Source: an uncultured bacterium | GTDB lineage: Bacteria; Krumholzibacteriota; Krumholzibacteriia; JACNKJ01 | Reading direction: 5' to 3' | Assembly (NCBI GenBank): GCA_964627205.1 | Contig: CAZVHI010000040.1 | Coordinates: 1-31,997 of the forward strand | Length of the DNA: 31,997 nucleotides | Made by a program: the position numbers and the translations under genes | The notes under the pieces: model-generated | Told to the model about the DNA's origin: nothing | Database searches by the model: none | The model's input: the letters and a program-made list of their open reading frames with translations, nothing else | Part shown: piece after piece, positions 6,758-31,997 of the stretch | How the letters are laid out: every line of letters begins with the position of its first letter | Position numbering within the stretch: position 1 is the first letter of the stretch

Positions 6758-8272
6758 ATGGCGATGGTGATGACACGCCTCTACGACATCCGCGAACGCA
6801 GCATCGAAGTCTCCACCCAGCGTCCGACCGACGTGCGGGTGGACGCGAGCATTCTACCCTGGCGCCCCGGCGACCGGGAGCGGGAAGCGACGGGTATCCT
6901 GGGGAAGGCCGGCGGGGCCGTCCTCGTGGAGATCGACGACTACCGTGGTGAACGCGACGTGATGCTCACATCCGGCGGATTCCTGCCCTCGCGCTTCCTC
7001 TTCCATCTCACCTTGCCCGAGGAGGGCAAGGTGGATCCCGAGATCCTGGAGGAGCGCTTCCGCGACTGTCTCTTCCAGGCCGGTGTGCTGGGGCTCGGCG
7101 AGCTCGCCATCCCCATCGTCGAGTTCTCGCCCTTCGTGGAGGACTTCTCGGAACTCGTGGAAGCGGTCTGGAAGGCCTGCCGCGAGTTTCTCGGTAGGGA
7201 GCGCGGCCCCCGGCGCGTCCTCTTCCTTGTCGAGGATCGGGACCTGCGGGGCCAGTACCTGCGGCACTTCTTCGGGCGCAAGCAGGCGGAGGAGCGCAAA
7301 TGGAGCGCCGGCGACTCGGCGCCGGGTGCGATCCCGACGCCTGCGAGTCAAACGCCGTCGGAAGCGATCCTCCGCCGCCGGGAGGGCGAGGAGAAGGTGC
7401 TCTCGCTGGACGTGGCCGAGACCGACGCGCTGACGGGCGCCCTGCAGTCCCTGCTGGTGGACTACAGCCAGGGCCGCAGCCTCGACCCGACGCTATGCGG
7501 CCTCACGCCGCCCATGCGCCAAGCGCTGGACCGCAGCGTGAGCCGGCAGGGCGAACCCTCCGAGCTGCCCGCGCGCCTGCGCATCCTGGGCTCGGATCTA
7601 GTGCTCAAGTTGCCCTGGGAGCTCCTGCGTCTGGGGCACGGCTACCTGGGGGAGGAGCACCTGCTCACGCGCGGAACGAACTTCCTCCATTTCCAGAAGG
7701 AGCGGCGGCGCACTTCCCCGCAGCCCTTCCAGGTCAGCTTCCGAGTGACGGGCAGTCCCGACGCCGCCCGCCGCCTCGCCGAGGAGCTGCAGAGCCTGAG
7801 CGAGCGGCGCCAGCTTGGCCTGAGCTGGGGCAAGGAAGAGGGAGCCAGCGCCCGCTTGGTGCACTGTCTCGGCCGGAAGGCGGCCGAGAGCCTGCTCGAC
7901 GAGATGCCGCTCAGCTGCGAGCTGGTCTTCCTGGAACTGGAGCCGGGCGAGGACTGGCGCGAGAGCAGCGGGATCGCCACGGAGGAGTGCGCCCGGCAAC
8001 TCGTTGCGCACGGCTGCCGCCGCGTGCTGGCTCCGCTGGCCGGCTTCCGCAGCGACCGGGAGCGCTTCGCCTTCCGGACGACCTTCTACGAGCGTCTGCT
8101 CTCGGGCGCCAGCGTCGGTGACGCCCTGCACTATGCGCAGCGCGTCGCCATGGAAGCCTTCGGCACGCACTCGGGCTGGTGGCTCTACCGGATCTTCGGC
8201 CAGACGGACGAGATCCTCATCCCCGCGAGAAAGACAGCCCAGCGCGAGAGCCGCGCGACGCAGCAGGCATAG
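6758..8272 (+). CDS. CHAT-like (caspase-fold) domain protein, ~504 aa. Start codon is uncertain (ATG 6758/6764/6770, none with a clear SD).
   Basis: The C-terminal half follows the CHAT domain order: LKLPWELL motif, then LVHCLGR (His region), then MPLSCELVFLE (Cys region), then a helical region ending HSGWWLYRIFG (CHAT domains typically end hP.WAaFvL.G). The reading frame stays open back to 6494, but that stretch is P/S/A-rich and overlaps the previous gene. A strong terminator follows. Confidence 0.45.
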   Translation: MAMVMTRLYDIRERSIEVSTQRPTDVRVDASILPWRPGDREREATGILGKAGGAVLVEIDDYRGERDVMLTSGGFLPSRFLFHLTLPEEGKVDPEILEERFRDCLFQAGVLGLGELAIPIVEFSPFVEDFSELVEAVWKACREFLGRERGPRRVLFLVEDRDLRGQYLRHFFGRKQAEERKWSAGDSAPGAIPTPASQTPSEAILRRREGEEKVLSLDVAETDALTGALQSLLVDYSQGRSLDPTLCGLTPPMRQALDRSVSRQGEPSELPARLRILGSDLVLKLPWELLRLGHGYLGEEHLLTRGTNFLHFQKERRRTSPQPFQVSFRVTGSPDAARRLAEELQSLSERRQLGLSWGKEEGASARLVHCLGRKAAESLLDEMPLSCELVFLELEPGEDWRESSGIATEECARQLVAHGCRRVLAPLAGFRSDRERFAFRTTFYERLLSGASVGDALHYAQRVAMEAFGTHSGWWLYRIFGQTDEILIPARKTAQRESRATQQA

Positions 8273-8338
8273 CCGCCGGCGACGACGCGACCGCAACAGC
8301 AAATCACCCAGTCGGATATCCTCTCCCACCCACAGCCG

Positions 8339-8372
8339 GGCCGGGGCCTTCGGGCCCCGGCCTTGTTGTTTC
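8339..8372 (+). terminator. Rho-independent terminator: GGCCGGGGCC-TTCG-GGCCCCGGCC followed by TTGTTGTTTCG.
   Basis: Perfect 10-bp GC stem closed by a UUCG tetraloop and a T-rich tail, 67 nt after the stop at 8272. Confidence 0.8.
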
Positions 8373-8426
8373 GCTCTCTCGCCTGCGCTCTGGCCTCGGC
8401 GCGCGATACCGGGTATTGTGTCGGAC

Positions 8427-11141
8427 ATGACGACCTGCACACATTGCAAGACGGAGCTTCCCGAGGGGAGCCGTTTCTGTCCGTCCTGCGGCGCGGCCCG
8501 AGCCTCCGACCCGACGGCGAAGACCATCGACTCGGGTGCGTCGAGCTTTCCGACCACGCCGGTCCCAGCACCCTCGCAGCGGCGCGAATCGGGCGACGCG
8601 GGCTCGCGGCCTTTGTCCAGCGGCGGTTCAGGCGGGCGCTTCGCGCCGGGGCAGATCCTGGGCGAGCGCTACCGCATCGTCGCCCTGGCGGGCGAAGGCG
8701 GGATGGGCGAGGTCTACCGCGCGGACGACCTCACCCTCGAGCAGCCCGTCGCCCTCAAATTTCTGCCGGAGGGTCTGGACCGGCATCCCGACAAGCTCGC
8801 GCGCTTCCGCGGCGAGGTCCGGCTCGCGCGCAAGGTCTCGCACCGTAACGTCTGCCGCGTCCACGACATCGGCGAGGCCGCGGGGCTGCAGTTCCTCTCG
8901 ATGGAGTACGTGGACGGCGAGGACCTCGCCACTCTTCTCAAGCGCATCGGCCGCCTCCCCCGCGACAAGGGCCTGGAGATCGCGCGGCAGCTCTGCGCGG
9001 GCCTGGCCTCCGCCCACGAGAAGGGCATCCTGCACCGCGACCTGAAGCCCGCCAACGTCATGATCGACGGCCAGGGCATGGTGCGCATCACCGACTTCGG
9101 GCTGGCGGCGCTCGCGGGCGCCGAAGGCGGCGAGCGCGTCTTCGCGGGCACACCCGCCTACATGGCCCCCGAGCAGCTGGCGGGGGAGGAGGGGACGGTA
9201 CGCAGCGAGCTCTACGCCCTCGGGCTCGTGCTCTACGAGATCTTCACGGGCAAGACCGTCCACGGCGGCGCCACGATCGCCGAGATCACGCGCCAGCAGC
9301 GCGAGACGGACCCAGCGAGCCCGTCGACGATCGTCGACGACATCGATCCCGTCGTCGAGCGCGTGATCCTCCACTGCCTGGAGAAGAACCCCGAGCTGCG
9401 CCCGGCCTCCGCCCTCGAGGTGGCGGCGGCGCTGCCCGGCGGCGACCCCCTCGCGGCCGCCCTGGCAGCGGGCGAGGTGCCGTCGCCGGAGATGGTCGCC
9501 GCCGCGGGCAAGCGTGGCGCGATCCGCCCCGTCTGGGGCTGGCTCTGCCTCCTGGGCACGGCGCTGGCCCTCGTGCTCGCCGTCCTCCTGGCGAGCCAGG
9601 TGACCTTGCTCCGGCTCGTGCCCCTCGAGAAGCCGCCGCCAGTGCTCGCGGAGCGTTCCCGGGAGATCATCCAGTCGCTCGGCTACGACGAACCCGTCAC
9701 CGACAGTGCGAGCGGCTTCAGCTTGAACTACGACCTCCTGCAGTTCATGGCGGGCAGCGATTCGTCTTCCTCGCGCTGGGGGAAGCTCGGCTTGGGGCGG
9801 CCGGCGGCGGTCTACTTCTGGTTCCGCGAGAGCCCGCGGCACCTCATCGCGCAAGACGCGGACGGCGACGTCTCGCGGCGCGACCCGCCCATGCTGATCT
9901 CGGGTGAGAGAAGAGTGTTCCTCGACGCCAAGGGCCGCCTGCTCCGCTTCGACGCGGTGCCGCCACAGGTCGATATCGTGGAGCCGGATCCCGATCCGGC
10001 GGATTGGACGGCGCTCTTCGCCGAGGCTGGACTCGATGGGGGACTCTTCGCGCCGGTGGACTCCGTGTGGAACCCGCCGGTCTACTGCAACGAGCTTGCG
10101 GCTTGGGAGGGGAGCCTGCCCGAGCTGCCGGACAGGAGGATCCGCGTCGAGGCAGGCGCCTACCGCGGCCGGCCCGTCTACTTCCGGATCCACGGCCCCT
10201 GGAGCCGCGCGGAGCGCATGCAGCCTCCCCAGCTCGGGTCGGGTCTTAAAGCGGCCCTGGTCATGAACGTCGTGCTGATGCTGGCGGCGCTGATCGCCTC
10301 CGCCCTGATCGTCCGCCGGAACCTGCGTCTGGGACTCGGCGACCGCCGCGGGGCCTTCCGCATCGCCCTCTACGTCTTTGTGGTGACCATGATCGGCTGG
10401 CTTCTCAGGGCCGACCACGTGCCCTCGCCCGCTGATGAGCTCGAGCTCTTCGAGAGGGGCGCGGGCGCGGGGCTCTTCGTGGCGGGCATCGTCTGGCTGC
10501 TCTACATGGCCCTCGAGCCGGCCGTGCGTCGCCGCTGGCCCCAGCGCCTCGTGGCCTGGAGCCGGCTCCTCGCGGGGCGCTTCACCGATCCCCTCGTCGG
10601 TCGAGACCTACTGCTGGGCGTGTCCTTCGGCATGGCCACGCTCTTCCTCGTCAAACTGGCGAACGCGGTCCCCGCCTGGCTCGGCCTGCCGGCACCGATG
10701 CCCGGCCTCACGGGGATGGTCGGCTTCGGCGGTCTTCCCCAGGCCTTCGCGGTTCTCTTCAACACCCAGGTGGTCGCCCTGATCAACGCCCTGTTCTTCC
10801 TATTCTTCCCGCTCGTGCTCTTCATGGTCCTGCGCAGGATCTGGGCGGCGGTCGCCGTCTTCTTCCTGATCCTGGTCGCGATGTTCACGATGACCTTTGG
10901 CCACCTCGCGATCGGCATCGTGACCGGCGCGTTGCTCATGGGCTCGTGGATCTTCGTGGCCCTACGCCTCGGAGTCCTGGCGAGCGCCGCCTGCTTCTTC
11001 GCCTACTTCACGCTGACCATGCTGCCGGTCACCTTCGACAACTCCGCCTGGTACATGAGCAGCAGCCTGGTGGGGGTGATCGTCGTGCTGGCCCTCGCGG
11101 TCTTCGGCTTCCGCAGCGCCATGGGCGCCAGCCGCACCTAG
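8427..11141 (+). CDS. Hanks-type Ser/Thr protein kinase (904 aa) with an N-terminal zinc ribbon, one transmembrane (TM) helix, a ~230-aa extracytoplasmic segment and a C-terminal polytopic (7-8 TM) membrane domain.
   Basis: N-terminus MTTCTHCKTELPEGSRFCPSCG has two CxxC pairs. Kinase motifs: GEGGMGEVY (Gly loop), ALK (VAIK Lys), HRDLKPANVM (catalytic loop), DFG and APE. After the kinase come the hydrophobic helix WGWLCLLGTALALVLAVLLA, a soluble segment, then many hydrophobic helices through to the C-terminus. The track ORF extends upstream to 8004 across the terminator and is rejected. Confidence 0.8.
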   Translation: MTTCTHCKTELPEGSRFCPSCGAARASDPTAKTIDSGASSFPTTPVPAPSQRRESGDAGSRPLSSGGSGGRFAPGQILGERYRIVALAGEGGMGEVYRADDLTLEQPVALKFLPEGLDRHPDKLARFRGEVRLARKVSHRNVCRVHDIGEAAGLQFLSMEYVDGEDLATLLKRIGRLPRDKGLEIARQLCAGLASAHEKGILHRDLKPANVMIDGQGMVRITDFGLAALAGAEGGERVFAGTPAYMAPEQLAGEEGTVRSELYALGLVLYEIFTGKTVHGGATIAEITRQQRETDPASPSTIVDDIDPVVERVILHCLEKNPELRPASALEVAAALPGGDPLAAALAAGEVPSPEMVAAAGKRGAIRPVWGWLCLLGTALALVLAVLLASQVTLLRLVPLEKPPPVLAERSREIIQSLGYDEPVTDSASGFSLNYDLLQFMAGSDSSSSRWGKLGLGRPAAVYFWFRESPRHLIAQDADGDVSRRDPPMLISGERRVFLDAKGRLLRFDAVPPQVDIVEPDPDPADWTALFAEAGLDGGLFAPVDSVWNPPVYCNELAAWEGSLPELPDRRIRVEAGAYRGRPVYFRIHGPWSRAERMQPPQLGSGLKAALVMNVVLMLAALIASALIVRRNLRLGLGDRRGAFRIALYVFVVTMIGWLLRADHVPSPADELELFERGAGAGLFVAGIVWLLYMALEPAVRRRWPQRLVAWSRLLAGRFTDPLVGRDLLLGVSFGMATLFLVKLANAVPAWLGLPAPMPGLTGMVGFGGLPQAFAVLFNTQVVALINALFFLFFPLVLFMVLRRIWAAVAVFFLILVAMFTMTFGHLAIGIVTGALLMGSWIFVALRLGVLASAACFFAYFTLTMLPVTFDNSAWYMSSSLVGVIVVLALAVFGFRSAMGASRT

Positions 11142-11163
11142 CAACTCCGCGGGCAAAAGGAAA

Positions 11164-11187
11164 AGCCGGGACCTCGCGGCCCCGGCT
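11164..11187. terminator. Bidirectional terminator hairpin between convergent genes (AGCCGGGACC-tcgc-GGCCCCGGCT, one mismatch), A-rich on the 5' side and T-rich on the 3' side.
   Basis: Stem-loop centred in the 76-nt gap between the 11141 (+) and 11218 (-) stops. It is flanked by CAAAAGGAAAAG upstream and CTCTCCTGCCTTTCG downstream. Confidence 0.55.
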
Positions 11188-11217
11188 CTCCTGCCTTTCG
11201 CGTGTGCTGCGCTCGGG

Positions 11218-12564
11218 CTAGGTCTCTACCTCTTCCACCTCAGCCTCCAGCATGCGCAGGAAGGCGCCGAGGATGTCGTCCATGTCGGGCCGGCCGATCT
11301 CCTCGAGGGAGTAGGTCACCCGCGTGCTGGGGTGCTGGATGTCGATGATCCGCCGCAGGTCGATGGGCGTGCCGATGACCACGGCCTCGCATTCGGTGGC
11401 GTTGATCGTCGCCTCGAGGTCCTTGATCTGATCGTCGCCGTAGCCCATGGCCGGCAGCAGGATGCCGATGTCCTCGTAGTGGTCGAAGGTCTCCACGAGC
11501 TTGCCGACGAGCCAGGGGCGGGGGTCGACGGGCATGCCGCCGTGCTTGAGCACGGCCACCGTGCCGGCGCCCAGCTTCATCTCGCCGTGCGTGAGCGTGG
11601 GGCCGTCCTCGACGATGAGCACCTGCTTGCCCTCGATCAGGTCGGGATCCTCCACGCTGATGGGGCTGGCCGCGTCGACGATCACGGCCTCGGGGTTGAG
11701 CTCGCGGACGACGTCGCGGACCTCCTCGATCTCGTCCAGGCCCGCGCTGTCGATCTTGTTGATCACGACGACGTCCGCCTGGAGGAGGTTCGTCTCGCCG
11801 GGGTAGTAGCTGGACTCGTGGCCGGGACGGAGCGGGTCGACCACGGTGATCAGCAGGTTGGGCAGGAAGAAGCTGGTGTCGTTGTTGCCGCCGTCCCAGA
11901 GGATGACGTCGGCCTCCTTCTCCGCCTCGCGCAGGATGGCCTCGTAGTCCACGCCGGCGTAGACGACGTGCCCGGCCGCGATGTGCGGCTCGTACTCCTC
12001 CATCTCCTCGATGCTGCAGTCCTGCTCCTTCAGGTCGTCGAGTGTGGCGAAGCGCTGGACGGCTTGCTTGACGAGGTCGCCGTAGGGCATGGGGTGGCGG
12101 ACGGCCACGACCTTCTTGCCCAGGTCGCTCAGGATCTCCATCACCTTGCGCGTCGTCTGGCTCTTGCCGCAGCCGGTACGCGTGGCGCAGACGGCGATGA
12201 CGGGCTTGCTGCTCTCGAGCATGGTGGCGGCCGTGCCGATGAGCTTGAAGTCCGGGCCCATGGCGTTCACGAAGCTGGCAGCGTGCATCACGTGCTCGTG
12301 GGGGACGTCGCTGTAGGAGAACACGACCTCTTCGACCTGATATTCGTCGATCAGCTCGGCGAGATCCTCCTCCGGGTGGATGGGAATGCCCTCGGGGTAG
12401 AGCCCGCCCGCCAGCTCGGCGGGGTAGCGCCGGCCGTCGATGTCGGGAATCTGCGTGGCCGTGAAGGCGACGACCTCGATGTCCTCGTTGTCCCGGTACA
12501 GGACATTGAAGTTGTGAAAGTCGCGGCCCGCCGCGCCCATGATGATGATCTTCTTGCGTGCCAT
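11218..12564 (-). CDS. P-loop GTPase-like protein of the cyclic 2,3-diphosphoglycerate synthetase (COG2403-like) family, 448 aa.
   Basis: ATG at 12564 with GAGGAG 8 nt upstream. Walker A TRTGCGKS, Walker B VILWDGG and NKID (G4-like) in the central domain. Overall length and N-terminus (KKIIIMGAAGRDFHNF) fit cDPGS-family proteins as I remember them. Family assignment is from memory, not a search. Confidence 0.45.
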   Translation of the reverse strand: MARKKIIIMGAAGRDFHNFNVLYRDNEDIEVVAFTATQIPDIDGRRYPAELAGGLYPEGIPIHPEEDLAELIDEYQVEEVVFSYSDVPHEHVMHAASFVNAMGPDFKLIGTAATMLESSKPVIAVCATRTGCGKSQTTRKVMEILSDLGKKVVAVRHPMPYGDLVKQAVQRFATLDDLKEQDCSIEEMEEYEPHIAAGHVVYAGVDYEAILREAEKEADVILWDGGNNDTSFFLPNLLITVVDPLRPGHESSYYPGETNLLQADVVVINKIDSAGLDEIEEVRDVVRELNPEAVIVDAASPISVEDPDLIEGKQVLIVEDGPTLTHGEMKLGAGTVAVLKHGGMPVDPRPWLVGKLVETFDHYEDIGILLPAMGYGDDQIKDLEATINATECEAVVIGTPIDLRRIIDIQHPSTRVTYSLEEIGRPDMDDILGAFLRMLEAEVEEVET

Positions 12565-12735
12565 GGAATTCTCCTCGGTACAGAGCCGAGTCGCGTCCGC
12601 GGGACCGGGAGGCCGCCGCGGGAAGACCCTGGCCGGGTGGGTGGATCTAACAGGCGCATAGTAAAAGAGTTGTGCGGAAAGTCAAGACACCCCGCCCCCT
12701 TGCGTCCTCGCGCGCGGGCGACTACTGTGTCGCCC

Positions 12736-13608
12736 ATGCAGGGAACACTGACCGGCTACTCCAAGGCGCTCTACGCCACCTGGTTCTACTACAAGCCCGC
12801 CCGGCTCCTGCTGGATGCGGGGGAGGGCATCGTCCACTCCCTGGGCAAGAAGATCTTCGGCATCCGGCGGGTCTTCCTCACCCATGGGCACGAGGACCAC
12901 ATCGCCGGTCTGCCCAGCCTGGTCAACCTGCGGAACCTGAGCAACGGCGACCGCGACATCCCCCTCAGCGTGCACTACCCCGCGGGCGATCCCTTCATCG
13001 AGTACCTGCGGGAGTACCTGGACAGAAAACAAAAACATCGCCTCCAGTATCGCCTCAGCTGGGAGGAGCTGGAGCCGGGAAGCCACGTGGAGCTGGATGT
13101 CACGCGCCGCAGCACGCGCGTGACGGCCTTCGGCGTGCAGCACACACGCGGCTGGCAGAGCGTGGGCTATCGGATCGAGGAGAAGCGCCAGGCCCTGCGG
13201 CCCGAGTATGCGTCCGCGTCCCCCGACGAGGTGAAGGGGCTCATCGCCGACCGGGGACGCGATGCGGTGTTGGCGAAATTCTGGCACCCGGTGCTCGTCT
13301 ACACGGGCGACAGCGTGCCTCTGACCGACCTCGCGCCCTGCCGCGAGGCGGACGTCCTGCTGATCGACTCCACCTTCCGTAGCGCCGAGGACCTGGCCGA
13401 GAGCCGCACGCGTCACGGACACATCGACGCCAGCTTCGAGACGGCCATGGCCGCCGGTGTCAAACATCTGGTCCTGGTCCACCTCTCGGGTCGCTATAGC
13501 CGCCAGGAGACGCTCGACGCCATCGAGAAGGCCGCGGCCCAGCACGGCCGCCCGCCCCGGCTCGGCTACTTCTTCGAGGGCCACTATTACGAGCTAGCAG
13601 CCTGCTAA
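12736..13608 (+). CDS. MBL-fold metallo-hydrolase, RNase Z/ElaC-like (290 aa).
   Basis: LLDAGEG...FLTHGHEDHIAGLP matches the metallo-beta-lactamase HxHxDH motif and the RNase Z N-terminal organisation. ATG at 12736 is immediately preceded by a perfect 7-bp inverted repeat (GGGCGAC-N6-GTCGCCC) and no obvious SD. The track ORF running back to 11332 is antisense to the GTPase gene and is rejected. Confidence 0.6.
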   Translation: MQGTLTGYSKALYATWFYYKPARLLLDAGEGIVHSLGKKIFGIRRVFLTHGHEDHIAGLPSLVNLRNLSNGDRDIPLSVHYPAGDPFIEYLREYLDRKQKHRLQYRLSWEELEPGSHVELDVTRRSTRVTAFGVQHTRGWQSVGYRIEEKRQALRPEYASASPDEVKGLIADRGRDAVLAKFWHPVLVYTGDSVPLTDLAPCREADVLLIDSTFRSAEDLAESRTRHGHIDASFETAMAAGVKHLVLVHLSGRYSRQETLDAIEKAAAQHGRPPRLGYFFEGHYYELAAC

Positions 13609-14556: not shown

Positions 14557-14625
14557 GGAATACGCTCCAGAGCGCGCTCTTGAAGAGGGCTACGGTATCA
14601 GTGCGCGGTCTTGAGTGGGTGTAAA

Positions 14626-14702
14626 CGGTCTGCGCTTGGCCGGCTCCCGCCGTAGCGACTGTGAAACCGGAGCCAAGGCGGGAGCCGGCCAAGCGCAGAC
14701 CG
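14626..14702. repeat. Hairpin element A: perfect 26-bp inverted repeat with a 25-nt loop GTAGCGACTGTGAAACCGGAGCCAA. It ends 1 nt from the stop codon of the 14704..15966 gene.
   Basis: 14626-14651 (CGGTCTGCGCTTGGCCGGCTCCCGCC) is the exact reverse complement of 14677-14702. The loop and the inner CGCC/GGCG pairs are almost identical to element B at 30458-30540, while the outer stems are unrelated. Confidence 0.9.
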
Positions 14703-14703
14703 C

Positions 14704-15966
14704 TTAGATATTCTTGAGGACCGCGCTCTGGACCGTGATGAAGTGCATGTTCGCCGTCGTGACGATGTTGGTGTCCTTCCGCTGCTCGCGCGGGTTGCGC
14801 CGGTTCCGCAGGGGGAAGGGCCGGTTGGCCAGGCGCATGTCCACGATCGCACGCTCGTTGTTGGCGGCGGCCATGTCCATGATCTCCTGGATCTCCGGCT
14901 TCACGCCCTCTCGCGGGATGACGAAGCGGAACTCGTCCTCGCCGATGATGTATCGGTCGCCCTCGTTGCTGAGCCGGGCCGTCACGCTGACGGTCTGCCC
15001 GAGCATCCAGCCGAAGGTGGCCTCCTCCAGCGGATCCGCGTCGCGCACACGCACGTAGGCGCCGCGGGCCTCGGTGTCCAGCGCGTCCACGCGGCTGGGC
15101 GCCGAGCCGGAGACGGGGATGCGTCCCAAGTACTTGAGCTCGCCCCGAGGGGAGACCATCTCTTCGCCGACGTAGATTCCGTTGACCCTCATGTTGCCCT
15201 CGCGGGTGTCCAGCTTGAGGGTCACGGGGGCGTTGTTGTGGGCCTCGATGGAGGCCTTCAGGTTGCCGATCCCCTCGATCTTCACGTAGAAGCCGCCCTC
15301 CAGGATCACGTTGTTGCCGCGGATGTAAAGCGGCCGCTTGATCCGGAGGTTCGAACGGTGGCTGAAGTGCGGCTTCAGGAAGTAGGCGAAGTAGTTCTGG
15401 CCTTCGAAGGGTTGCTCGGTGGTCTTCATGACCGCCTGGAGGCTGCGCGGCTCGTAGTGGTCGGCCTGGGCGAGGTAGACCGCGCGGGCCACGACGAGCA
15501 CGACGATGAGCACGCCGAGGCGCACGGCGCTGCCCTTGATCAGGGCGGCGGGGCCCTTCTTGTAGAAGGGCAGGTTCGCCTCCATGATGTGCGTCAGTTC
15601 CTCGGTGAAGGAGTCCTCGCGACTCAGGGTCCGCTTCGCATCCTCGGACGAGGGGATGAACTCCTCGCCCGCGCTCAGGGCGGCGCCCGGTGTCTCGTCG
15701 AGCATCTCGCGAAGAAAGGCGAGGCGGCCTCCGGGGCAGGTGAAGCAGATCTCCTTGCCCGCCTTGCCCGATACGACGAAGTAGTCGTCACCCCGCAGGT
15801 CTTCGTACTCGTCCATGCGGACGATGGCCGACTCGATCGGATCGAGATTCAGTTTCGCGCGGAGCTGCTTCTCCTCGCGGGCGGAGTAGCCGCTCACGCG
15901 GACCTGGTAGTTGGGATCCTTCCTGTAGACGGCGATCCTCATGCGGGACTCTGCCAACGCGCGCAC
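14704..15966 (-). CDS. Hypothetical bitopic membrane protein (~410-420 aa). N-terminal cytoplasmic domain, one TM helix (AVRLGVLIVVLVVARAVYLA), large extracytoplasmic domain.
   Basis: Long ORF with a clear hydrophobic helix ~130 aa in. Start is ambiguous: GTG 15966 has GGAGG directly adjacent, TTG 15957 has GGAGG 8 nt upstream, ATG 15942 has no SD. No named domain recognised. Confidence 0.5.
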   Translation of the reverse strand: MRALAESRMRIAVYRKDPNYQVRVSGYSAREEKQLRAKLNLDPIESAIVRMDEYEDLRGDDYFVVSGKAGKEICFTCPGGRLAFLREMLDETPGAALSAGEEFIPSSEDAKRTLSREDSFTEELTHIMEANLPFYKKGPAALIKGSAVRLGVLIVVLVVARAVYLAQADHYEPRSLQAVMKTTEQPFEGQNYFAYFLKPHFSHRSNLRIKRPLYIRGNNVILEGGFYVKIEGIGNLKASIEAHNNAPVTLKLDTREGNMRVNGIYVGEEMVSPRGELKYLGRIPVSGSAPSRVDALDTEARGAYVRVRDADPLEEATFGWMLGQTVSVTARLSNEGDRYIIGEDEFRFVIPREGVKPEIQEIMDMAAANNERAIVDMRLANRPFPLRNRRNPREQRKDTNIVTTANMHFITVQSAVLKNI

Positions 15967-18333: not shown

Positions 18334-18370
18334 AAGAGGACTCCGCCTCGCGGAGTCCTCTTTCTTTTCG
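18334..18370 (+). terminator. Rho-independent terminator: AAGAGGACTCCGC-ctc-GCGGAGTCCTCTT followed by TCTTTTCG.
   Basis: Perfect 13-bp stem, 3-nt loop, T-tract, 34 nt after the stop at 18300. Confidence 0.85.
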
Positions 18371-18459
18371 CCCAGACGATCGTCGCGCGGCGCCGCGGTG
18401 GCTTTCGTTTCCCGCTGCGCCGTCGCGAACCTTCCGGCGCACACTGTGTTCCCGAATCC

Positions 18460-26416: not shown

Positions 26417-29400
26417 ATGCGCCGGTTACCCGCGCTCCTGATCCCGATGATTCTCCTTCTCTCCTTCGACGCGGCGGCTGTCGTCCAGCCGCAGAAGCTG
26501 CTCCTCGATCCCGACGCCGCCTCCGAAGCGGTAGCCTGCCGGATCGCGAGCGAGGTGGGAGAGCCGCTGCGACTGGAGTTCACGCTTCCCGCCCTGGATC
26601 TCGAGGAGATCGCGGTCGCGGGGGAGGTGTACCAGGCCCTCAGCATCTCCGGTGGGGGGATGAGGGGAGAGACCGGCCAGGCAGGGCTGCCCAGCTACTC
26701 CCGTCTGCTCGCCGTGCCCGCGGGCTCGGTCGCCCGGGCGACGGTCATCAGCAGGGCCGACCAGGCGCTGCCCGGTTATAGAGTCCTGCCGGTCCAGCCT
26801 GACGGCGCCGAGGACTTCGTCATCGATCGGGACTGGTACGCCGCGGGGGTGGCGGCCGCGCCGCCCGCCGTGGAGCTGGGCGATGTGGCCTACATCCGCG
26901 ACCAGGCCGTGCTGCCGCTGACGATCAACCCGGTTTCCTGGGACCCCGCCACCGGCGAATTGCGCGTGGCGACGCAGCTCGAGATCGAAGTGGAGCTCGT
27001 GGGCGCCTCTGCCTTGACGGACGACAGCGCCCGTCGCTTCATCCCCGAGTCCTTCGACCGCCTCTTCTCGGACGTCCTGTTGGGCTACCAGCGTGGGGAC
27101 GCGGAGGTGGGGCCCGGCACCTATCTCATGATCTGCCCCAACAACTCGGGCGTGACCAGCCGTCTCTCGAATCTGCTCGACTGGCGCCGCCGCCAGGGCT
27201 ACAACGTGATCCTGGCCACTACTGCCCAGACCGGCACCACGACCGGCTCGATCTTGAACTACATCCAGAGCACCTACAACACGGTCGACCCGCCGCTGGA
27301 GCACGTCGTGCTGGCGGGCGACGCCAACGGCTCCTACAGCATCCCCTGCTGGTACGAGAATCTCTCCTGGTACGACGGCGAGGGCGACCACTACTACACG
27401 AACCTCGAGGGCGGCGATGTCCTGTCCGACGTGCACATCGGCCGCCTCTCCTTCCGCGACTACGGCACGCTCGAGGACATCGTCGACAAGATCGTCACCT
27501 ACGAGAGCGATCCGCCCATGGGCGACGCGGGTTGGTTCACACGCGCGGGCCTGGCGGGAGACCAGTACACCCAGTCGGGCATCACCACGGTCTACGTGAA
27601 CCAGTGGGTCAAGCAGCACCTGCTTGCGCACAACTACACGCAGGTGGACACGATGTGGGCCCCGAACGCCACCCAGATGAGGAACTCCATCAACCAGGGG
27701 CTCTCGGTCTTCGGCTACCGCGGCTACCTGAACATGAGCGGCATGTCCACCGGTTACATCACCGGGCTCACCAATGGCTACAAGCTGCCTTATGCCATCA
27801 TCGTGACCTGCGACACGGGCTCCTTCTCCGAGCAGCAGACCTGTCGCTCCGAGGCCTTCCTGCGCGCCGCGAACGGCGGCGGCATCGGCTCGGTGGGCAC
27901 CGCCACCTGGGGCACGCACACGCGCTACAACAACTGCTACTACCAGGGCTCCTGGGATGGGGTGATCAACGGCTCGGACCACCGTCTGGGTCCCTCACAC
28001 ACGCGCGGGAAGCTGGAACTCTACAACAACTACCAGCTTTCCCAGCCGAACACCGTCGAGATCTGGTGCGTGTGGAACAATCTCATGGGCGATCCCGCCA
28101 CGCCCATGTGGATGGCCTATCCCGCCGACCTGGACGTCACCCACCCGGCCGAGCTGGCGGTGGGCGCCAACTCCGTGGCGCTGAACGTGAGCTCGAGCGG
28201 CCTCCCGGTGGAGGGCGCGGGAGTCGCGCTCTACAAGGACGGCGAGCTCCGCGTCACCGGCTACACGGACGCCGCCGGCGCGGCGAACCTGCCCATCGCG
28301 GGCTACGGCGCGGGCGAGCTGCTGGTAACCGTCACCAAGCACAACTTCATGCCCTACCTGGGCAGCCTCGACCTGGGCAGCCTGCCGGTCTTCGCGGCCT
28401 ACGAGGCCTCGATCGTCGATGACGACGGCTCGGGCGGCAGCCTCGGCAACGGCAACGGCGTGGTCAACCCGGGCGAGACGATCGAGCTGCCGGTGGCGCT
28501 GCACAACTACGGCAGCGGCACGGCGACCGACGTCAGCGCCACGATCACCAGCAGCGATCCCTTCGTGTCAATCATCGACGATGTGGAGAGCTACCCGGAC
28601 ATCCCGGCGGGGGCTACGGTCTGGAGCGCCGAGGATTTCGATTTCGCGGTGGCGGCCGGCACGCCGGACGGACATGTGATCGCCCTCGATCTCGAGGTCA
28701 CTAGCGGCTTCCAGTCCTGGACCTCGCTGATCGAGCTGACCGTTGTCAGCGCGGCCTTCGAGCAGGAGGACTTCTCCTGGGGCGGCTCGGGCAGCATGCT
28801 CGATCCGGGCGAGTCGGGCAGCTTCAGCGTGCTGATCCGCAACGTGGGGACGAGCAGCAGCGGGGGCGCGCTGGCCGTGCTTCAGACGGACAGCCCCTGG
28901 GTCGACGTGACCGATCCCTTCGGGACCTACGCGCTCATCGCCCCCGGCTCGACGGGCGAGAACCTCGACGATACGTTTGCGCTCGACATTGCGTCCGACT
29001 GCTTCGAAGGCCACCAGGCAGCCTTCCAGCTCACGCTGATCTACGGTGACGGCGCGCAGGCCACGGCGGAGTTCAGCCTGCCGGTGGGTTCGACCTCTAC
29101 GGGCGACCCGATCGGCCCGGACGGCTACGGCTACTATGCCTTCGACAACTCCGACTCTGCCTATCCCCAGGCACCGGTCTACGACTGGGTGGAGATCGCG
29201 CCGAACCACGGCGGTTCGGGCACGAGCGTGGGTCTCACGGACAATGGCTGGGAGCAGGACGACACGAACATCCTGCCGCTGCCTTTCACCTTCCGCTACT
29301 ACGGCCAGGACTACAACGAGATCTCCATCTGCTCCAACGGCTGGGCCGCATTGGGCGCCTCGGGTCTGGTGCACTACCGCAACTGGAGCATCCCTAGCTC

Positions 29401-30454
29401 GGGCAGCCCGAACGCGATGATCGCCCCCTTCTGGGACAACCTCTACCAGTCGGGCAACGACAAGGTCTACTACTGGCACGACACAGCGAACCACCGCTAC
29501 GTCGTGCAGTGGAGCCGGCTGCGAAACCAGCACAATGGGTCGACCGAGAACTTCGAGATGATCCTCTACGACCCCGTCTACCATCCGACGGCCACCGGCG
29601 ACGGCGAGATCGTCTTCCAGTACAGCACGATCTACAACGTCGACAGCACCAACGGCTACGGCACGGTGGGCATCCAGAACCAGGACCGCTCGGACGGGCT
29701 GCTCTACACCTACTGGAACCAGTACCCGGCTGGCGCCGCCAGCCTCTCGAGCGGCCGCGCGATCCGCGTCCTCACAGTGACGTCACAGCTCGAGCCCACC
29801 TGCGACGCCTCCCCCGAGGAGTTCGTCCGCGTCATGGCGCCGAACGAGACGACGACCGGTTGGCTACAGCTGAGCAACGGCGGCGACCCCGGCTCGATCC
29901 TCTCCTACCAGGTCGGCGCCGGGGAGCTGCCCAGTGGAGGCCCGGGCGGCGGCCCGCTGGCCGGCCGCGGTGTCGATTGGCTGCAGATTCAGGACGGCGC
30001 GGGCGACGTGCCCCAGGGCGGTACGGACGACGTTCAGATCACCTTCGACTCGTCCGGGCTGGAGGAGGGGACCTACGAGGCACTGCTGCTCGTGGCGAGC
30101 AACGCCGCAGAACCAGTGTTCGTGCCGGTCACCCTGATCGTGGACGGCACCGGCACGGGCGCGGAGCAGGCGCCGACCGTCTTCGCGCTAGGGCAGAACC
30201 ACCCCAATCCCTTCAACCCGCGGACGGAGATCCGCTTCGCCCTGCCCGCGGATGGCGAGGCGCGGCTGGCGATCTACGACCTGTCCGGCCGGCGCGTGCG
30301 CACGCTGGTCGAGGGTTCTCTCCCTGCTGGCACTCATCATGTGGTCTGGGACGGCACGGACGATGCCGGCCAGGCCCTGGCCTCGGGCGTCTACTTCTAT
30401 CGCCTCGAGACCGCCGCGCAGACTCTGAGTCGTAAGATGCTGTTGTTAAAGTGA
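26417..30454 (+). CDS. Large secreted C25-family (gingipain-like) cysteine peptidase (~1345 aa) with multiple Ig-like/beta-sandwich domains and a T9SS type-A C-terminal sorting domain.
   Basis: Signal peptide MRRLPALLIPMILLLSFDAAA. The C25-like core LAGDANGS...YRGYLNMSG...KLPYAIIVTCDTGSFSE resembles the gingipain catalytic-Cys region. The C-terminus NHPNPFNPRTEIRFALP...YDLSGRRVRTL...GVYFYRL...KMLLLK is the Por_Secre_tail/T9SS CTD signature. Confidence 0.7.
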   Translation: MRRLPALLIPMILLLSFDAAAVVQPQKLLLDPDAASEAVACRIASEVGEPLRLEFTLPALDLEEIAVAGEVYQALSISGGGMRGETGQAGLPSYSRLLAVPAGSVARATVISRADQALPGYRVLPVQPDGAEDFVIDRDWYAAGVAAAPPAVELGDVAYIRDQAVLPLTINPVSWDPATGELRVATQLEIEVELVGASALTDDSARRFIPESFDRLFSDVLLGYQRGDAEVGPGTYLMICPNNSGVTSRLSNLLDWRRRQGYNVILATTAQTGTTTGSILNYIQSTYNTVDPPLEHVVLAGDANGSYSIPCWYENLSWYDGEGDHYYTNLEGGDVLSDVHIGRLSFRDYGTLEDIVDKIVTYESDPPMGDAGWFTRAGLAGDQYTQSGITTVYVNQWVKQHLLAHNYTQVDTMWAPNATQMRNSINQGLSVFGYRGYLNMSGMSTGYITGLTNGYKLPYAIIVTCDTGSFSEQQTCRSEAFLRAANGGGIGSVGTATWGTHTRYNNCYYQGSWDGVINGSDHRLGPSHTRGKLELYNNYQLSQPNTVEIWCVWNNLMGDPATPMWMAYPADLDVTHPAELAVGANSVALNVSSSGLPVEGAGVALYKDGELRVTGYTDAAGAANLPIAGYGAGELLVTVTKHNFMPYLGSLDLGSLPVFAAYEASIVDDDGSGGSLGNGNGVVNPGETIELPVALHNYGSGTATDVSATITSSDPFVSIIDDVESYPDIPAGATVWSAEDFDFAVAAGTPDGHVIALDLEVTSGFQSWTSLIELTVVSAAFEQEDFSWGGSGSMLDPGESGSFSVLIRNVGTSSSGGALAVLQTDSPWVDVTDPFGTYALIAPGSTGENLDDTFALDIASDCFEGHQAAFQLTLIYGDGAQATAEFSLPVGSTSTGDPIGPDGYGYYAFDNSDSAYPQAPVYDWVEIAPNHGGSGTSVGLTDNGWEQDDTNILPLPFTFRYYGQDYNEISICSNGWAALGASGLVHYRNWSIPSSGSPNAMIAPFWDNLYQSGNDKVYYWHDTANHRYVVQWSRLRNQHNGSTENFEMILYDPVYHPTATGDGEIVFQYSTIYNVDSTNGYGTVGIQNQDRSDGLLYTYWNQYPAGAASLSSGRAIRVLTVTSQLEPTCDASPEEFVRVMAPNETTTGWLQLSNGGDPGSILSYQVGAGELPSGGPGGGPLAGRGVDWLQIQDGAGDVPQGGTDDVQITFDSSGLEEGTYEALLLVASNAAEPVFVPVTLIVDGTGTGAEQAPTVFALGQNHPNPFNPRTEIRFALPADGEARLAIYDLSGRRVRTLVEGSLPAGTHHVVWDGTDDAGQALASGVYFYRLETAAQTLSRKMLLLK

Positions 30455-30457
30455 GCT

Positions 30458-30540
30458 TGCTCGGAGAGGACACGTACCCTTTCGCCGTAGCGACTGTGAA
30501 GCTGGAGCCAAGGCGAAAGGGTACGTGTCCTCTCCGAGCA
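30458..30540. repeat. Hairpin element B: perfect 29-bp inverted repeat with a 25-nt loop GTAGCGACTGTGAAGCTGGAGCCAA. It starts 4 nt after the peptidase stop codon.
   Basis: 30458-30486 (TGCTCGGAGAGGACACGTACCCTTTCGCC) is the exact reverse complement of 30512-30540. The loop differs from element A at only 2 of 25 positions, and the CGCC/GGCG closing pairs are shared. Confidence 0.9.
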
Positions 30541-30649
30541 CCCCCGTAGCTAACCCAGCTACCGAACAAACCACGGGGGTGCAGGGCCTCTCTGCTCGAG
30601 CCAGGATTATCGCTTGCAGCCACGGCGGACTTCGGGGCACAGTGCGCGC

Positions 30650-31804
30650 ATGTCCACGCTCATCATCGGCGACATCCACGGCTGCTACGACGAGCTGCAG
30701 GCCCTGCTGGACCTCGTTGGCCCCGACGAGGATGACGATATCCTCGCCGTCGGCGACCTCGTCGACCGGGGTCCGGACAGCCTGCGCGTGCTCGAGTTCT
30801 TCCGTGACCATCCCCGTGCGAGTTCCCTGCTCGGCAACCACGAGGACCGTCACGTGCGCGCTTTCTACGGCGAGGGCAGCCTTGGCTTCTCCCACCAGAT
30901 CGCGTGCGCCCAGATGGGCAAGAAGGCCTACCGCGACGCCTGCGCCTACATGGGCACTCTTCCCATCCACCGCGAGATCGACGACGCGCTGGTCGTGCAC
31001 GCGTTCTGGGAGCCGGGCCTCCCGCTGAAGAAGCAGAAGGGCATGGTCCTGGTCGGCAACGCGGAGGGCCTACTCTACCTCTGGGAGAAGTACGAGCGGC
31101 CCTGGTACACGCTCTACGATCGCGAAGGGCCGATCGTAGTGGGGCATCTCGACTACCTGCAGCGCGGCGAACCCTTTGTCTACGAGGATCGCGTCTTCTG
31201 TCTCGACACCGGCTGCGCGAAGGGCGGCGCCCTGACCGGCCTGCTCCTGCCGGAGTACCGGCTCCATACGGTCGAGACGCCGCGAAACCACTGGCGCGAG
31301 CTCAAGTCCTCCTACGGGGACCTTCGTCCCGAGGTGAACGTCGCGGACACGAACGTGAGCTGGTCGAAACTCGGCGAGCTGCTCGAGATGATGTCGGAAC
31401 AGAAGGAGATGACCCCCGGTCTCGAGAGGCGCCGAAAGAACCTGCGGGAGTTCAGTCTCCAGGGTGAGGACGCGCTCGACCGTCTCCTGACTGCGTTGCT
31501 CGCCAGGAACGCGGAGATCCTCCGCAAGCTGAAGACGAAGAAGGACTACGACGAGCTCCCGCCCGACAAGCAGCGCAAGCTCTACGCCGCCCGGGCGGGG
31601 GACTCGCCCCTGAGCCCGTTGCTCGAGCGGGCCCGCGAGGGGCGCCTGACGCGCAAGGCCCTGCGCAAGCACTTCAAGAAGCCCCGCGACCTGATCACCT
31701 TCTGCCAGACCGCCGACCTCCTGGGCGACGAACTGCTCGCGCTGAATGAAGGCAGTAACGGCGGGAAGAACAACAGCAAGAAGAACGGTAAGAACGGCGG
31801 CTAG
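30650..31804 (+). CDS. PPP-family metallophosphoesterase (Ser/Thr phosphatase, ApaH/PrpE-like), 384 aa, with a ~150-aa C-terminal extension ending in a K/N/G-rich tail.
   Basis: IIGDIHGC (GDxHG), VGDLVDRG (GDxVDRG) and GNHE motifs in canonical order. ATG at 30650 with a weak SD. The TTG at 30614 used by the track has none. The C-terminal 150 aa is charged and helical, ending NGGKNNSKKNGKNGG. Confidence 0.7.
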   Translation: MSTLIIGDIHGCYDELQALLDLVGPDEDDDILAVGDLVDRGPDSLRVLEFFRDHPRASSLLGNHEDRHVRAFYGEGSLGFSHQIACAQMGKKAYRDACAYMGTLPIHREIDDALVVHAFWEPGLPLKKQKGMVLVGNAEGLLYLWEKYERPWYTLYDREGPIVVGHLDYLQRGEPFVYEDRVFCLDTGCAKGGALTGLLLPEYRLHTVETPRNHWRELKSSYGDLRPEVNVADTNVSWSKLGELLEMMSEQKEMTPGLERRRKNLREFSLQGEDALDRLLTALLARNAEILRKLKTKKDYDELPPDKQRKLYAARAGDSPLSPLLERAREGRLTRKALRKHFKKPRDLITFCQTADLLGDELLALNEGSNGGKNNSKKNGKNGG

Positions 31805-31997
31805 GCCCCGGGCCGCCGACCTCATCGAGAAGGGTATGGTGGGGACGATCGGCGTCATGACCGTGACCTACGACTTCGAGCAGCACATGGACGGCGCGCA
31901 GCTCAGCCGGAGCGCTGCCATGCTGATCAGATTGCTCGTCATCGTTGTTCGTTGCCAGCTCTATCCGGACTCCATGGCCCCATAGCTAACAGACACT

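What the first reader, a model, noticed from the sequence alone, without database searches (positions are those of the whole stretch)
30458..30540. Second member of the conserved-loop hairpin family, in the opposite gene-strand context (3' of a plus-strand T9SS peptidase gene)
The 29-bp perfect stem (30458-30486 with 30512-30540) encloses the loop GTAGCGACTGTGAAGCTGGAGCCAA. The loop has the same orientation on the plus strand as in element A, but here the upstream gene is on the plus strand, whereas for A it is on the minus strand. The core therefore keeps a fixed orientation while the flanking gene orientation flips. This argues against a simple transcript-bound terminator module and is more compatible with a DNA-level (mobile or recombinogenic) element or a bidirectionally functional hairpin. 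There is no T-tract on the plus side after the stem (the following sequence is ACCCCCGTAGC). The next gene (the PPP phosphatase) starts ~110 nt downstream. The stems of A and B share no sequence, so the elements are not simple duplications of each other.
Basis: seen in the sequence. Interest (0 to 1): 0.75.

Follow-up and report, generated by a model that had tools for sequence, protein, structure and literature searches.

The report
Perfect hairpins sharing one conserved tip
Just after a secreted-protease gene lies an 83-base perfect DNA hairpin, one of at least three in this uncultured bacterium that share a tip sequence but have different stems; it is real and fits no catalogued family, and it most likely shapes the end of the messenger RNA rather than being a jumping element.

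Summary
Positions 30458-30486 pair perfectly with 30512-30540 (29 bp) around the loop GTAGCGACTGTGAAGCTGGAGCCAA. The hairpin starts 3 nt after the TGA of a C25/T9SS peptidase gene, has no T-tract, and lies 110 nt before the phosphatase ATG. Element A (14622-14706) has the same core. I found a third member, C, about 1.1 kb left of the window. All three share GC[GACTnnGAAnnnGGA]GC inside a ~33-nt core. They start -3 to +10 nt from a stop codon and contain only Watson-Crick pairs (no G-U).

B and C are probably paralogous modules. They follow homologous T9SS C-terminal domains and their arms are similar (p about 0.003). However, the loop is inverted relative to the gene. Loop orientation therefore flips by arm-to-arm exchange, and orientation does not show mobility. 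The window also holds ordinary terminators, so these hairpins are a separate class. Rfam, 327 kb of related genomes and three collection scans gave no further members.

Best reading (about 0.45): a lineage-specific, REP-like 3'-end or intercistronic mRNA stem-loop whose palindrome is kept perfect by templated correction. One thing remains unexplained: the A and B cores match at 30 of 33 positions while their arms are unrelated. That leaves room for a DNA-level process seeded by the core.

The parts
26417..30454 (+). Upstream gene: C25-family peptidase with a T9SS C-terminal (FlgD_ig-type) sorting domain. Its TGA stop is at 30452-30454.
   Evidence: Gene table with Pfam PF08126, PF01364 and PF13860; sequence.
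30458..30486 (+). 5' arm of element B, 29 nt, locus-specific sequence. Its last 4 nt (CGCC) are shared with A.
30487..30511 (+). Conserved 25-nt 'loop' GTAGCGACTGTGAAGCTGGAGCCAA. It comprises a 3x3 internal loop (GTA/CAA), two G-C pairs (30490-91 with 30507-08) and the 15-nt apex.
30492..30506 (+). 15-nt apex GACTGTGAAGCTGGA. The family consensus is GACTnnGAAnnnGGA. On this strand the predicted mini-fold has tandem G.A/A.G pairs, a C-G pair and two covarying pairs closing a GAA triloop.
   Evidence: The opposite strand has no consistent fold.
30512..30540 (+). 3' arm of element B, the perfect complement of 30458-30486.
30541..30581 (+). A second, imperfect hairpin immediately after B (outer CCCCCG/CGGGGG, inner GTAGCT/AGCTAC). 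No T-tract follows it.
   Evidence: Folds.
30650..31804 (+). Downstream co-directional gene: a PPP-type metallophosphoesterase. Its ATG is 110 nt after B.
14622..14706 (+). Element A, sister member of the family. It has a 26-bp perfect stem plus 3 more pairs that include the TAA stop (14704-14706) of a minus-strand 412-aa gene. Its core matches B at 30 of 33 positions and its arms are unrelated to B's.
14562..14586 (-). Left arm of an outer imperfect inverted repeat around A. It covers the GGAG/ribosome-binding region upstream of the DsrE-like ATG (14556).
   Evidence: I3: 25 nt, 84%; 0 of 2000 shuffles reach the score.
14712..14736 (-). Right arm of that outer repeat. It consists of the last ~8 codons of the 412-aa ORF.

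Best explanation
Element B belongs to a small, lineage-specific family of long, strictly Watson-Crick palindromes (67-85 nt) that sit directly after stop codons in an uncultured Krumholzibacteria-like bacterium.

Shown:
- The family has three members in about 34.5 kb.
- All share a ~33-nt apex.
- The arms are perfect and locus-specific.
- Each starts at a stop codon, and each is followed 66-110 nt later by a co-directional gene.

Inferred mechanism:
- The hairpin is transcribed as the 3' or intercistronic part of the upstream mRNA. It acts through its stem as a barrier to 3' exonucleases, as a possible RNase III site and as an obstacle to the terminating ribosome. This sets the level of the upstream message relative to the downstream gene. 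This is how REP elements and plastid 3' inverted repeats work, and it differs from a canonical U-tract terminator.
- At the DNA level the two arms repeatedly template or recombine with each other. This keeps them perfectly complementary while they drift and occasionally flips the loop, which explains why loop orientation relative to the gene differs between members.
- The conserved apex reflects common descent. It is probably also a binding site for an unknown factor.
For: - Position: B starts 3 nt after its stop codon, A overlaps its stop, and C starts 10 nt after its stop, in spacers of 195, 147 and 177 nt. My rough estimate of the chance of this is about 0.002.
- All three lie between co-directional genes.
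- The window has canonical short-loop terminators elsewhere. B has no U-tract, so it is a different class.
- Around A, an outer repeat pairs the last codons of the upstream ORF with the ribosome-binding region of the next gene (0 of 2000 shuffles; fold). This is a translational-coupling layout and implies read-through transcripts across the hairpin.
- B and C follow homologous T9SS C-terminal domains (53% aa; 63% DNA identity). Their arms are similar (17 of 31; 17 of 5000 shuffles) but their loops are inverted.
- 15 of 21 outer pairs changed on both sides, none on one side only, and there is no G-U pair. This fits templated arm-to-arm correction.
- The orthologous C25 gene of the nearest relative also carries a hairpin, of different and imperfect sequence, 4 nt after its stop. 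The position is therefore conserved but the sequence is not.
- Precedents: REPs lie mostly downstream of ORFs between unidirectional or convergent genes and can stall ribosomes near the stop codon (PMC3733652, PMC12306157). Hairpin loops flip in plastid spacers (PMC6824564).
Against: - There are no expression data, so transcription, 3' ends and processing are all inferred.
- If only the stem matters, the strong conservation of the apex is not explained. Loops match at 13 of 15 (A-B) and 11 of 15 (A-C, B-C), against 55% or random identity in the arms.
- The A and B cores match at 30 of 33 positions with unrelated arms and unrelated upstream genes. This is hard to get by vertical descent plus drift.
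- Only three copies, from one clonal population, are available.
- The B-C arm homology rests on p about 0.003, and the orientation call for C rests on 15 nt.
- Relatives have ordinary short hairpins after their T9SS genes, so the need for a 29-bp stem is not obvious.
Confidence: 0.45

Rival explanations
1. DNA-level mobile or recombinogenic element. The ~33-nt apex is the conserved unit, for example the recognition or nicking site of an HUH/Y1-type or other DNA enzyme acting on an extruded or single-stranded hairpin. After the apex arrives at a site, the long arms are built locally by snap-back or template-switch copying of the flank. This would give each copy unique but perfect arms.
For: - The A and B cores match at 30 of 33 positions while their arms are unrelated.
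- The arms are strictly Watson-Crick, with no G-U in about 85 pairs.
- Loop orientation is independent of gene orientation.
- Around A, the distal flank carries an inverted, diverged copy of the coding 3' end. Outward palindrome growth from local sequence would produce this.
- A variable stem with a conserved loop is the architecture of rolling-circle Rep origins (my own knowledge, not tested here).
Against: - No transposase, Rep, reverse transcriptase or recombinase appears in the window or in the 2.5 kb beyond it.
- No target-site duplication or empty site was found.
- There are no copies in 327 kb of related genomes, in GTDB representatives or JGI contigs for the A/B loop, or in viral contigs.
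- B and C share homologous flanks, which argues for spread by gene duplication.
- The tight link to stop codons is unexpected for random insertion.
Confidence: 0.2
2. Strand-specific structured RNA. The apex on the GACU...GGA strand folds into a defined motif (tandem sheared G.A pairs, a C-G pair, a 2-bp helix and a GAA triloop) that is bound by a protein. The long duplex is a scaffold or a processed payload. In B this strand is the mRNA sense strand. In A and C it would need antisense transcription.
For: - RNAalifold predicts the same apex fold in all three members, with two covarying pairs (GC/GC/UG and UA/UG/CG).
- The U.G wobbles would be C.A mismatches on the other strand, which has no consistent fold.
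- The apex is more conserved than the arms.
Against: - There are only three sequences, two of them near-identical. My estimate of the chance of the six compatible pairs is about 0.01-0.05.
- The consensus fold energy is only -1.7 kcal/mol.
- In two of three members the motif is antisense to the flanking genes.
- There is no Rfam match beyond generic long-hairpin (miRNA-like) hits far below threshold, on both strands.
Confidence: 0.15
3. An ordinary, possibly bidirectional, intrinsic transcription terminator. The shared loop would be a leftover of common ancestry with no function.
For: - It is a GC-rich hairpin just after a stop codon.
- A perfect palindrome folds equally well on both strands.
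- For B and C, the loop, arms and coding flank are all about 55-73% identical, which fits plain divergence.
Against: - There is no U-tract on either strand, and the terminator scan finds nothing.
- The stem and loop are far outside the usual range, and the same genome uses canonical terminators.
- All three members lie between co-directional genes, so bidirectionality is not needed.
- The coupling structure around A implies read-through.
- A and B core identity with unrelated arms is not explained.
Confidence: 0.1
4. Assembly or library artefact (fold-back chimera or adapter-derived loop), or an actively switching invertible DNA segment.
For: - Palindromes often confuse assemblers, and several contigs end in A or B.
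Against: - The sequence and loop orientation are identical in independent JGI, ENA and Logan assemblies from different samples, with unique genes on both sides.
- The loop matches no collection sequence other than chance coding hits.
- No locus shows the opposite loop orientation.
Confidence: 0.03

Closest known systems
REP / BIME elements (repetitive extragenic palindromes, with or without RAYT transposases)
   Same: - Short extragenic palindromes forming lineage-specific families.
- Mostly located downstream of ORFs between unidirectional or convergent genes.
- Thought to act as RNA hairpins that stabilise mRNA, attenuate transcription or stall ribosomes when close to the stop codon (PMC3733652, PMC12306157).
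- Palindromy is preserved through complementary changes (PMC2817692).
   Different: - REPs are 20-40 bp imperfect palindromes whose stem sequence is the conserved part. They carry an unpaired GT(A/G)G or CGTC head at one end (PMC2817692, PMC3733652).
- Here the stems are 25-34 bp, perfect and locus-specific, and the conserved part is the apex.
- GTAG occurs only in A and B, at the top of the stem, and is absent in C.
- The copy number and any RAYT gene are unknown.
Intrinsic (Rho-independent) terminators
   Same: A GC-rich stem-loop a few nucleotides after a stop codon.
   Different: - There is no U-tract.
- The stem is 29 bp and the loop 15-25 nt, against short stems and 3-8 nt loops.
- The same window contains canonical examples.
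Plastid 3' inverted repeats with flip-flop 'small inversions'
   Same: - Stem-loops at gene 3' ends whose loop is found in either orientation between related sequences, because the arms recombine or template each other (PMC6824564).
- They act as RNA processing and stability elements rather than as terminators (my own knowledge).
   Different: - They are organellar.
- Their loops are not conserved between different loci.
- Their stems are shorter.
Stem-loop origins of HUH (rolling-circle Rep) endonucleases, and IS200/IS605-type hairpin ends
   Same: - A sequence-specific element presented on a hairpin.
- In Rep origins the loop is conserved and the stem varies (my own knowledge).
   Different: - No Rep or TnpA gene is nearby.
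- The loop resembles no known nonanucleotide.
- The chromosomal copies are tied to stop codons.
- Nothing about this comparison was tested here beyond the absence of such genes in the window.
The palindromic repeat of the sister species (L021 20027-20081 and about 9876-9945)
   Same: - It comes from the nearest related organism.
- It is a hairpin with a 25-nt loop placed 8 nt after the stop of a T9SS cargo gene, with a second copy in the peptidase-phosphatase spacer and the loop inverted between the copies.
   Different: - Both the stem (about 85% identity) and the loop are conserved between its copies, so it is REP-like.
- Its loop sequence is unrelated.
- Its loop folds further into a normal small-loop hairpin.

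Membership tests
REP (repetitive extragenic palindrome) | An unpaired GT(A/G)G or CGTC head at one end of the palindrome (PMC2817692, PMC3733652) | tested here: not met
   The feet of A, B and C carry no such tag. GTAG occurs only in A and B, at the top of the stem inside the conserved core, and C lacks it.
REP (repetitive extragenic palindrome) | A 20-40 bp imperfect palindrome whose stem sequence is conserved among copies | tested here: not met
   The elements are 67-85 nt with perfect stems. The A arms are unrelated to those of B and C, and the B-C arms are 55% identical.
REP (repetitive extragenic palindrome) | High copy number (about 100 or more per genome) and clustering into BIMEs | not testable with these tools
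   Only about 34.5 kb of this genome could be reached, and it holds 3 copies, none clustered.
REP (repetitive extragenic palindrome) | A cognate RAYT (Y1 transposase) gene flanked by the repeats | not testable with these tools
   None is present in the window or in the flanks held. The rest of the genome is not available.
Intrinsic terminator | A GC-rich hairpin with a short loop (3-8 nt) followed by a U-tract | tested here: not met
   The scan finds no site in 30300-30750. The loop is 15-25 nt, and the following sequence is ACCCCCGTAGC on the + strand and AAGCTCACTT on the - strand.
Any Rfam 15 family | A covariance-model score at or above the family's gathering threshold | tested here: not met
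   There are no hits at the gathering threshold in the window. At E<=10 there are only generic miRNA-type long-hairpin hits at 12-42 bits against thresholds of 41-180, on both strands.
Integron attC site | Conserved R''/R' boxes (RYYYAAC ... GTTRRRY) at the foot of an imperfect hairpin with extrahelical bases | tested here: not met
   Read from the sequence. The feet are TGCTCGG...CCGAGCA in B and TAAACGG...CCGCTTA in A. There are no such boxes, the stems are perfect, and conservation is at the apex rather than the foot.
Invertible DNA switch (inverton) | Both orientations of the segment between the inverted repeats present in one population | tested here: inconclusive
   All 7 assemblies of B and all 4 of A show one orientation, but only consensus contigs were examined, not reads. 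The flip is seen only between the paralogous loci B and C.
MITE / insertion-derived element | Terminal inverted repeats conserved among copies, direct target-site duplications, and empty sites in relatives | tested here: not met
   The arms are not conserved. No flanking direct repeats were noted at B. The nearest relative is too divergent (52-55% aa identity) to define an empty site, and it carries its own hairpin at that position.

The most novel reading that the evidence does not exclude
The ~33-nt apex is a self-contained DNA unit that is copied or converted between sites. It then seeds a palindrome whose arms are synthesised from the local flank by snap-back or template-switch copying. 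This would be a new kind of recombinogenic or mobile element with a constant tip and locally templated perfect arms, possibly driven by a dedicated hairpin-recognising enzyme.

The reading would explain several observations:
- the near-identical A and B cores with unrelated arms;
- the complete absence of G-U pairs;
- the loop flips;
- the inverted copy of coding sequence beyond element A.
Probability: 0.12. Interest if true: 0.8.

Novelty: new variant of a known kind. Interest (0 to 1): 0.45.

Why it matters
If the ordinary reading holds, this is a clear bacterial example of two things. First, gene-end palindromes are kept perfect and flipped by their own arms, a process well documented in plastids but rarely noted in bacteria. 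Second, it is a caution that loop orientation cannot be used to infer mobility.

The conserved tip on otherwise unrelated perfect stems matches no REP, terminator or Rfam class. It therefore marks either a binding site for an unknown factor in a poorly known phylum (Krumholzibacteria-like, FCB group) or a new way of making palindromes.

There is also a practical point. These hairpins break short-read assemblies of this organism, which partly explains why its contigs stay under 35 kb.

Tried and rejected
1. Collection scans for the A/B loop (GTAGCGACTGTGAANNNGGAGCC). GTDB representative genomes gave 1 hit and JGI metagenome contigs gave 2 hits. All are chance matches in coding sequence with no hairpin.

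2. Viral-contig scans. The family apex pattern gave 113 hits, none with a long stem. An extended pattern gave 1 hit with no hairpin.

3. Attempts to reach more of this genome or close relatives. I ran homolog searches with the phosphatase, the T9SS C-terminal domain and the sister species' 1348-aa T9SS protein, followed by look-ups. Every look-up gave other Krumholzibacteria-like organisms, with at most 55% identity for the phosphatase. None has the motif, and the covariance model R1 finds nothing in 327 kb. One relative's DNA could not be fetched.

4. Stem arms as guides or antisense. The arms have no significant match elsewhere in the window or in the related loci searched. The whole B element has none in the phage or plasmid collections.

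5. SECIS or read-through after the TGA. Rejected: the protein ends in a normal T9SS C-terminal motif, A follows a TAA and C a TAG.

6. tRNA anticodon-like loop, T-loop, K-turn, hammerhead core, group II domain V, SRP domain IV, CsrA site, sigma-54 or ECF promoter, IHF site, ssoA CS-6. I compared each by eye. All were rejected because required pairings or consensus positions are missing or are not shared by C.

7. CCGTAGC enrichment near A and B. The 7-mer is over-represented across the window (13 against 4 expected), but mostly inside coding sequence. I did not pursue it.

8. Homology of the sister species' post-stop hairpin to B. Its structure is different and it has no 15-nt apex. Only the position is shared.

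9. Population variation. All samples are at least 99.96% identical, so nothing can be learned about constraint or polymorphism.

Full report
**1. The observation**

Arms 30458-30486 and 30512-30540 are perfectly complementary over 29 bp. They enclose the loop GTAGCGACTGTGAAGCTGGAGCCAA. Allowing two mismatches, pairing continues to 34 nt, leaving a 15-nt apex. The fold is extreme for its composition: RNA -67.5 and -70.8 kcal/mol on the two strands, z about -10; DNA -40.5 kcal/mol, z -10.

The loop pattern occurs exactly twice in the window, at 14652-14676 (element A) and 30487-30511 (element B), both on the + strand. None is expected by chance.

B begins 3 nt after the TGA (30452-54) of a 1345-aa C25 peptidase that carries a T9SS C-terminal domain. 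It ends 110 nt before the ATG (30650) of a metallophosphoesterase gene. No T-tract follows on either strand, and the terminator scan is empty.

The hairpin is identical in seven loci from independent JGI, ENA and Logan assemblies. Other assemblies break inside A or B, or leave a poly-G/N gap. It is therefore real DNA and not an artefact.

**2. A third member and the true conserved unit**

I walked off the left end of the window using a window protein and scanned the new sequence for hairpins. This found element C at L025 15600-15666, about 1.1 kb beyond window position 1:

GAGGGACGAGGACCCGT-A-TGCCGCGC[GACTTCGAAGGCGGA]GCGCGGCA-G-ACGGGTCCTCGTCCCTC

C lies 10 nt after the TAG of a 77-aa gene that encodes only a T9SS C-terminal domain.

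Aligning A, B and C shows a shared core of about 33 nt:

[C/T]GCCG(TA/C)GC GACTnnGAAnnnGGA GC(CA/G)(A/C)GGC

These three are the only hairpins with a perfect stem of at least 14 bp found in the ~34.5 kb of this organism that I could read, and all three carry this apex.

On the chromosome C points the opposite way to A and B. Relative to the upstream gene, A and C carry the apex antisense and B carries it sense.

**3. No catalogued family matches**

Rfam gives nothing at gathering thresholds. At E<=10 it gives only generic long-hairpin (miRNA-type) hits far below threshold on both strands.

The A/B loop is absent from GTDB representative genomes and from JGI metagenome contigs, apart from chance coding matches. 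The family apex pattern finds only stem-less chance hits in viral contigs. There is no phage or plasmid similarity.

A covariance model built from A, B and C finds no further member in 327 kb of this and related genomes.

**4. The organism and its relatives**

The best phosphatase homologs are only 52-55% identical. Named hits are Candidatus Krumholzibacteriia, and one related contig is labelled Krumholzibacteria.

The syntenic sister species (L021-L024, L145-146) has no such apex. Even so, its C25 gene is followed 4 nt after the stop by an imperfect, branched hairpin of unrelated sequence. That species also has its own REP-like palindrome with a 25-nt loop. One copy lies 8 nt after the stop of another T9SS gene, and a second copy with the loop inverted lies in the peptidase-phosphatase spacer.

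Other relatives have ordinary short-loop hairpins after their T9SS genes. No relative is close enough for an empty-site test. The population itself is clonal, at least 99.96% identical across samples.

**5. What kind of hairpin this is**

The window contains canonical terminators with tetraloops and T-tails, at 794-869, 8332-8375 and about 18340-18380. A, B and C are therefore a separate class. Their stems are 25-34 bp, their apex is 15 nt, and they have no U-tract.

All three lie between co-directional genes, 66-110 nt upstream of the next start codon.

All three start within -3 to +10 nt of a stop codon, although the spacers are 147-195 nt long. By a rough calculation of my own, this has a chance of about 0.002.

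Around A there is a significant outer inverted repeat, 14562-14586 with 14712-14736 (25 nt, 84%; 0 of 2000 shuffles reach its score). It pairs the last ~8 codons of the upstream ORF with the GGAG region just before the next gene's ATG. This is the classic layout for translational coupling and implies that transcripts read through A. B and C have no such outer repeat.

**6. How the family evolves**

Across the three members, 15 of 21 outer-stem pairs differ on both sides, none differs on one side only, and no G-U pair occurs anywhere. Pairing is therefore strict at the DNA level and equal on both strands. That is not the pattern of an RNA helix drifting through wobble intermediates.

B and C are probably homologous as whole modules:
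- The C-terminal domain of the peptidase and the 77-aa protein are 53% identical.
- Their coding DNA is 63% identical (147 of 234).
- The arms after the stop codons match at 17 of 31 positions, and only 17 of 5000 shuffles reach this.

Yet the 15-nt apex of C matches B at 11 of 15 positions only when it is inverted relative to gene and arms, against 3 of 15 in the same orientation. The simplest account is exchange or template switching between the two arms. This both restores perfect complementarity and flips the loop, the flip-flop described for plastid hairpins (PMC6824564).

What remains unexplained is A. Its core matches B at 30 of 33 positions, but its arms and its upstream gene are unrelated to those of B.

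**7. The apex**

On the GACT...GGA strand, RNAalifold predicts the same mini-fold in all three members. It comprises two closing G-C pairs, tandem G.A/A.G pairs, a C-G pair, a mismatch, and two pairs that covary (GC/GC/UG and UA/UG/CG) around a GAA triloop. The complementary strand has no consistent fold.

With three sequences and -1.7 kcal/mol this is only a lead. In A and C that strand is antisense to the flanking genes.

**8. Verdict**

Most likely (about 0.45), B is a lineage-specific, REP-like stem-loop at the 3' or intercistronic end of an mRNA. It would act through its stem on message stability, processing and ribosome release, and its palindrome would be maintained and flipped by arm-to-arm templating.

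It fails the defining tests for REPs, intrinsic terminators, attC sites, MITEs and every Rfam family (see the membership table). The features it shares with REPs are position and presumed role (PMC3733652, PMC12306157, PMC2817692).

Rival readings:
- A DNA-level element seeded by the core (about 0.2).
- A strand-specific RNA motif (about 0.15).
- A plain terminator (about 0.1).
- An artefact or an active invertible switch (about 0.03).

The finding is real and unclassified, but it rests on three copies in one clonal uncultured population, with no expression data. I score interest at 0.45.

Noticed in passing
L025/L026 15600-15666 (about 1.1 kb left of window position 1, same organism): Third member of the family (element C). 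It has a 17+8 bp stem with one A.G mismatch and the apex GACTTCGAAGGCGGA. It lies 10 nt after the TAG of a 77-aa gene that encodes only a T9SS C-terminal domain. Its loop is inverted relative to B.
   Followed up: yes
window 14562-14586 with 14712-14736 (alternative partner 14587-14612): An outer imperfect inverted repeat encloses element A. It pairs the last ~8 codons of the 412-aa ORF with the GGAG region upstream of the DsrE-like gene, which looks like translational coupling. The two downstream partner segments are diverged direct repeats of each other.
   Followed up: partly
window about 14599-14696 and 30486 (contig ends of L010, L012, L013, L016-L020; gap in L014): Many independent short-read assemblies end inside or next to hairpins A and B. 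One scaffold has a poly-G/N gap in place of A. L012 shows GTAGTGAC instead of GTAGCGAC within 40 nt of its contig end, which is probably an error.
   Followed up: partly
window 30541-30581: A second, imperfect hairpin lies directly after B (CCCCCG...CGGGGG with an inner GTAGCT/AGCTAC stem). It also has no T-tract.
   Followed up: no
L021 20027-20081 and about 9876-9945; L022 9476-10000: The sister species has its own 55-nt palindromic repeat with the loop CGCTTCGCACGGACGTGAGGCGCTT. It has two copies with the loop inverted between them. In some assemblies a ~237-bp unit of the peptidase-phosphatase spacer is tandemly duplicated.
   Followed up: partly
L156 679-714 (different organism, ENA ERZ781358): A T9SS C-terminal domain gene is followed 2 nt after its TAG by GCCGCGC[GTGTGACAACGTG]GCGCGGC. 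The inner stem is the same as in element C, and the loop resembles TGTGAAAC of A. The contig ends there. This may be a distant relative or may be chance.
   Followed up: no
window 31985-31997 and L004 11337-11414: All assemblies stop about 260 nt after the phosphatase gene, at a GC-poorer stretch holding the end of a minus-strand ORF (...RWYNQGYELKAEELIRPSSIRESVC*). It is probably a repeated, IS-like sequence.
   Followed up: no
L025 about 15523-15540: A perfect 16-bp palindrome, TTTGTCACGTGACAAA, lies upstream of the prepilin peptidase (A24) gene. It looks like an operator.
   Followed up: no
window 6758-13608: A cluster of possible signalling or defence flavour. It comprises a 504-aa protein with a weak CHAT hit, a 904-aa Ser/Thr kinase with a zinc ribbon, a 448-aa protein with a CobW-type NTPase hit, and an MBL-fold protein that hits the Anti-Pycsar Apyc1 family.
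   Followed up: no
window, 13 sites (e.g. 14589, 14650, 30485, 30544): The 7-mer CCGTAGC is over-represented (13 against about 4 expected). It occurs once more within 60 nt of both A and B, but most copies are inside coding sequence.
   Followed up: partly
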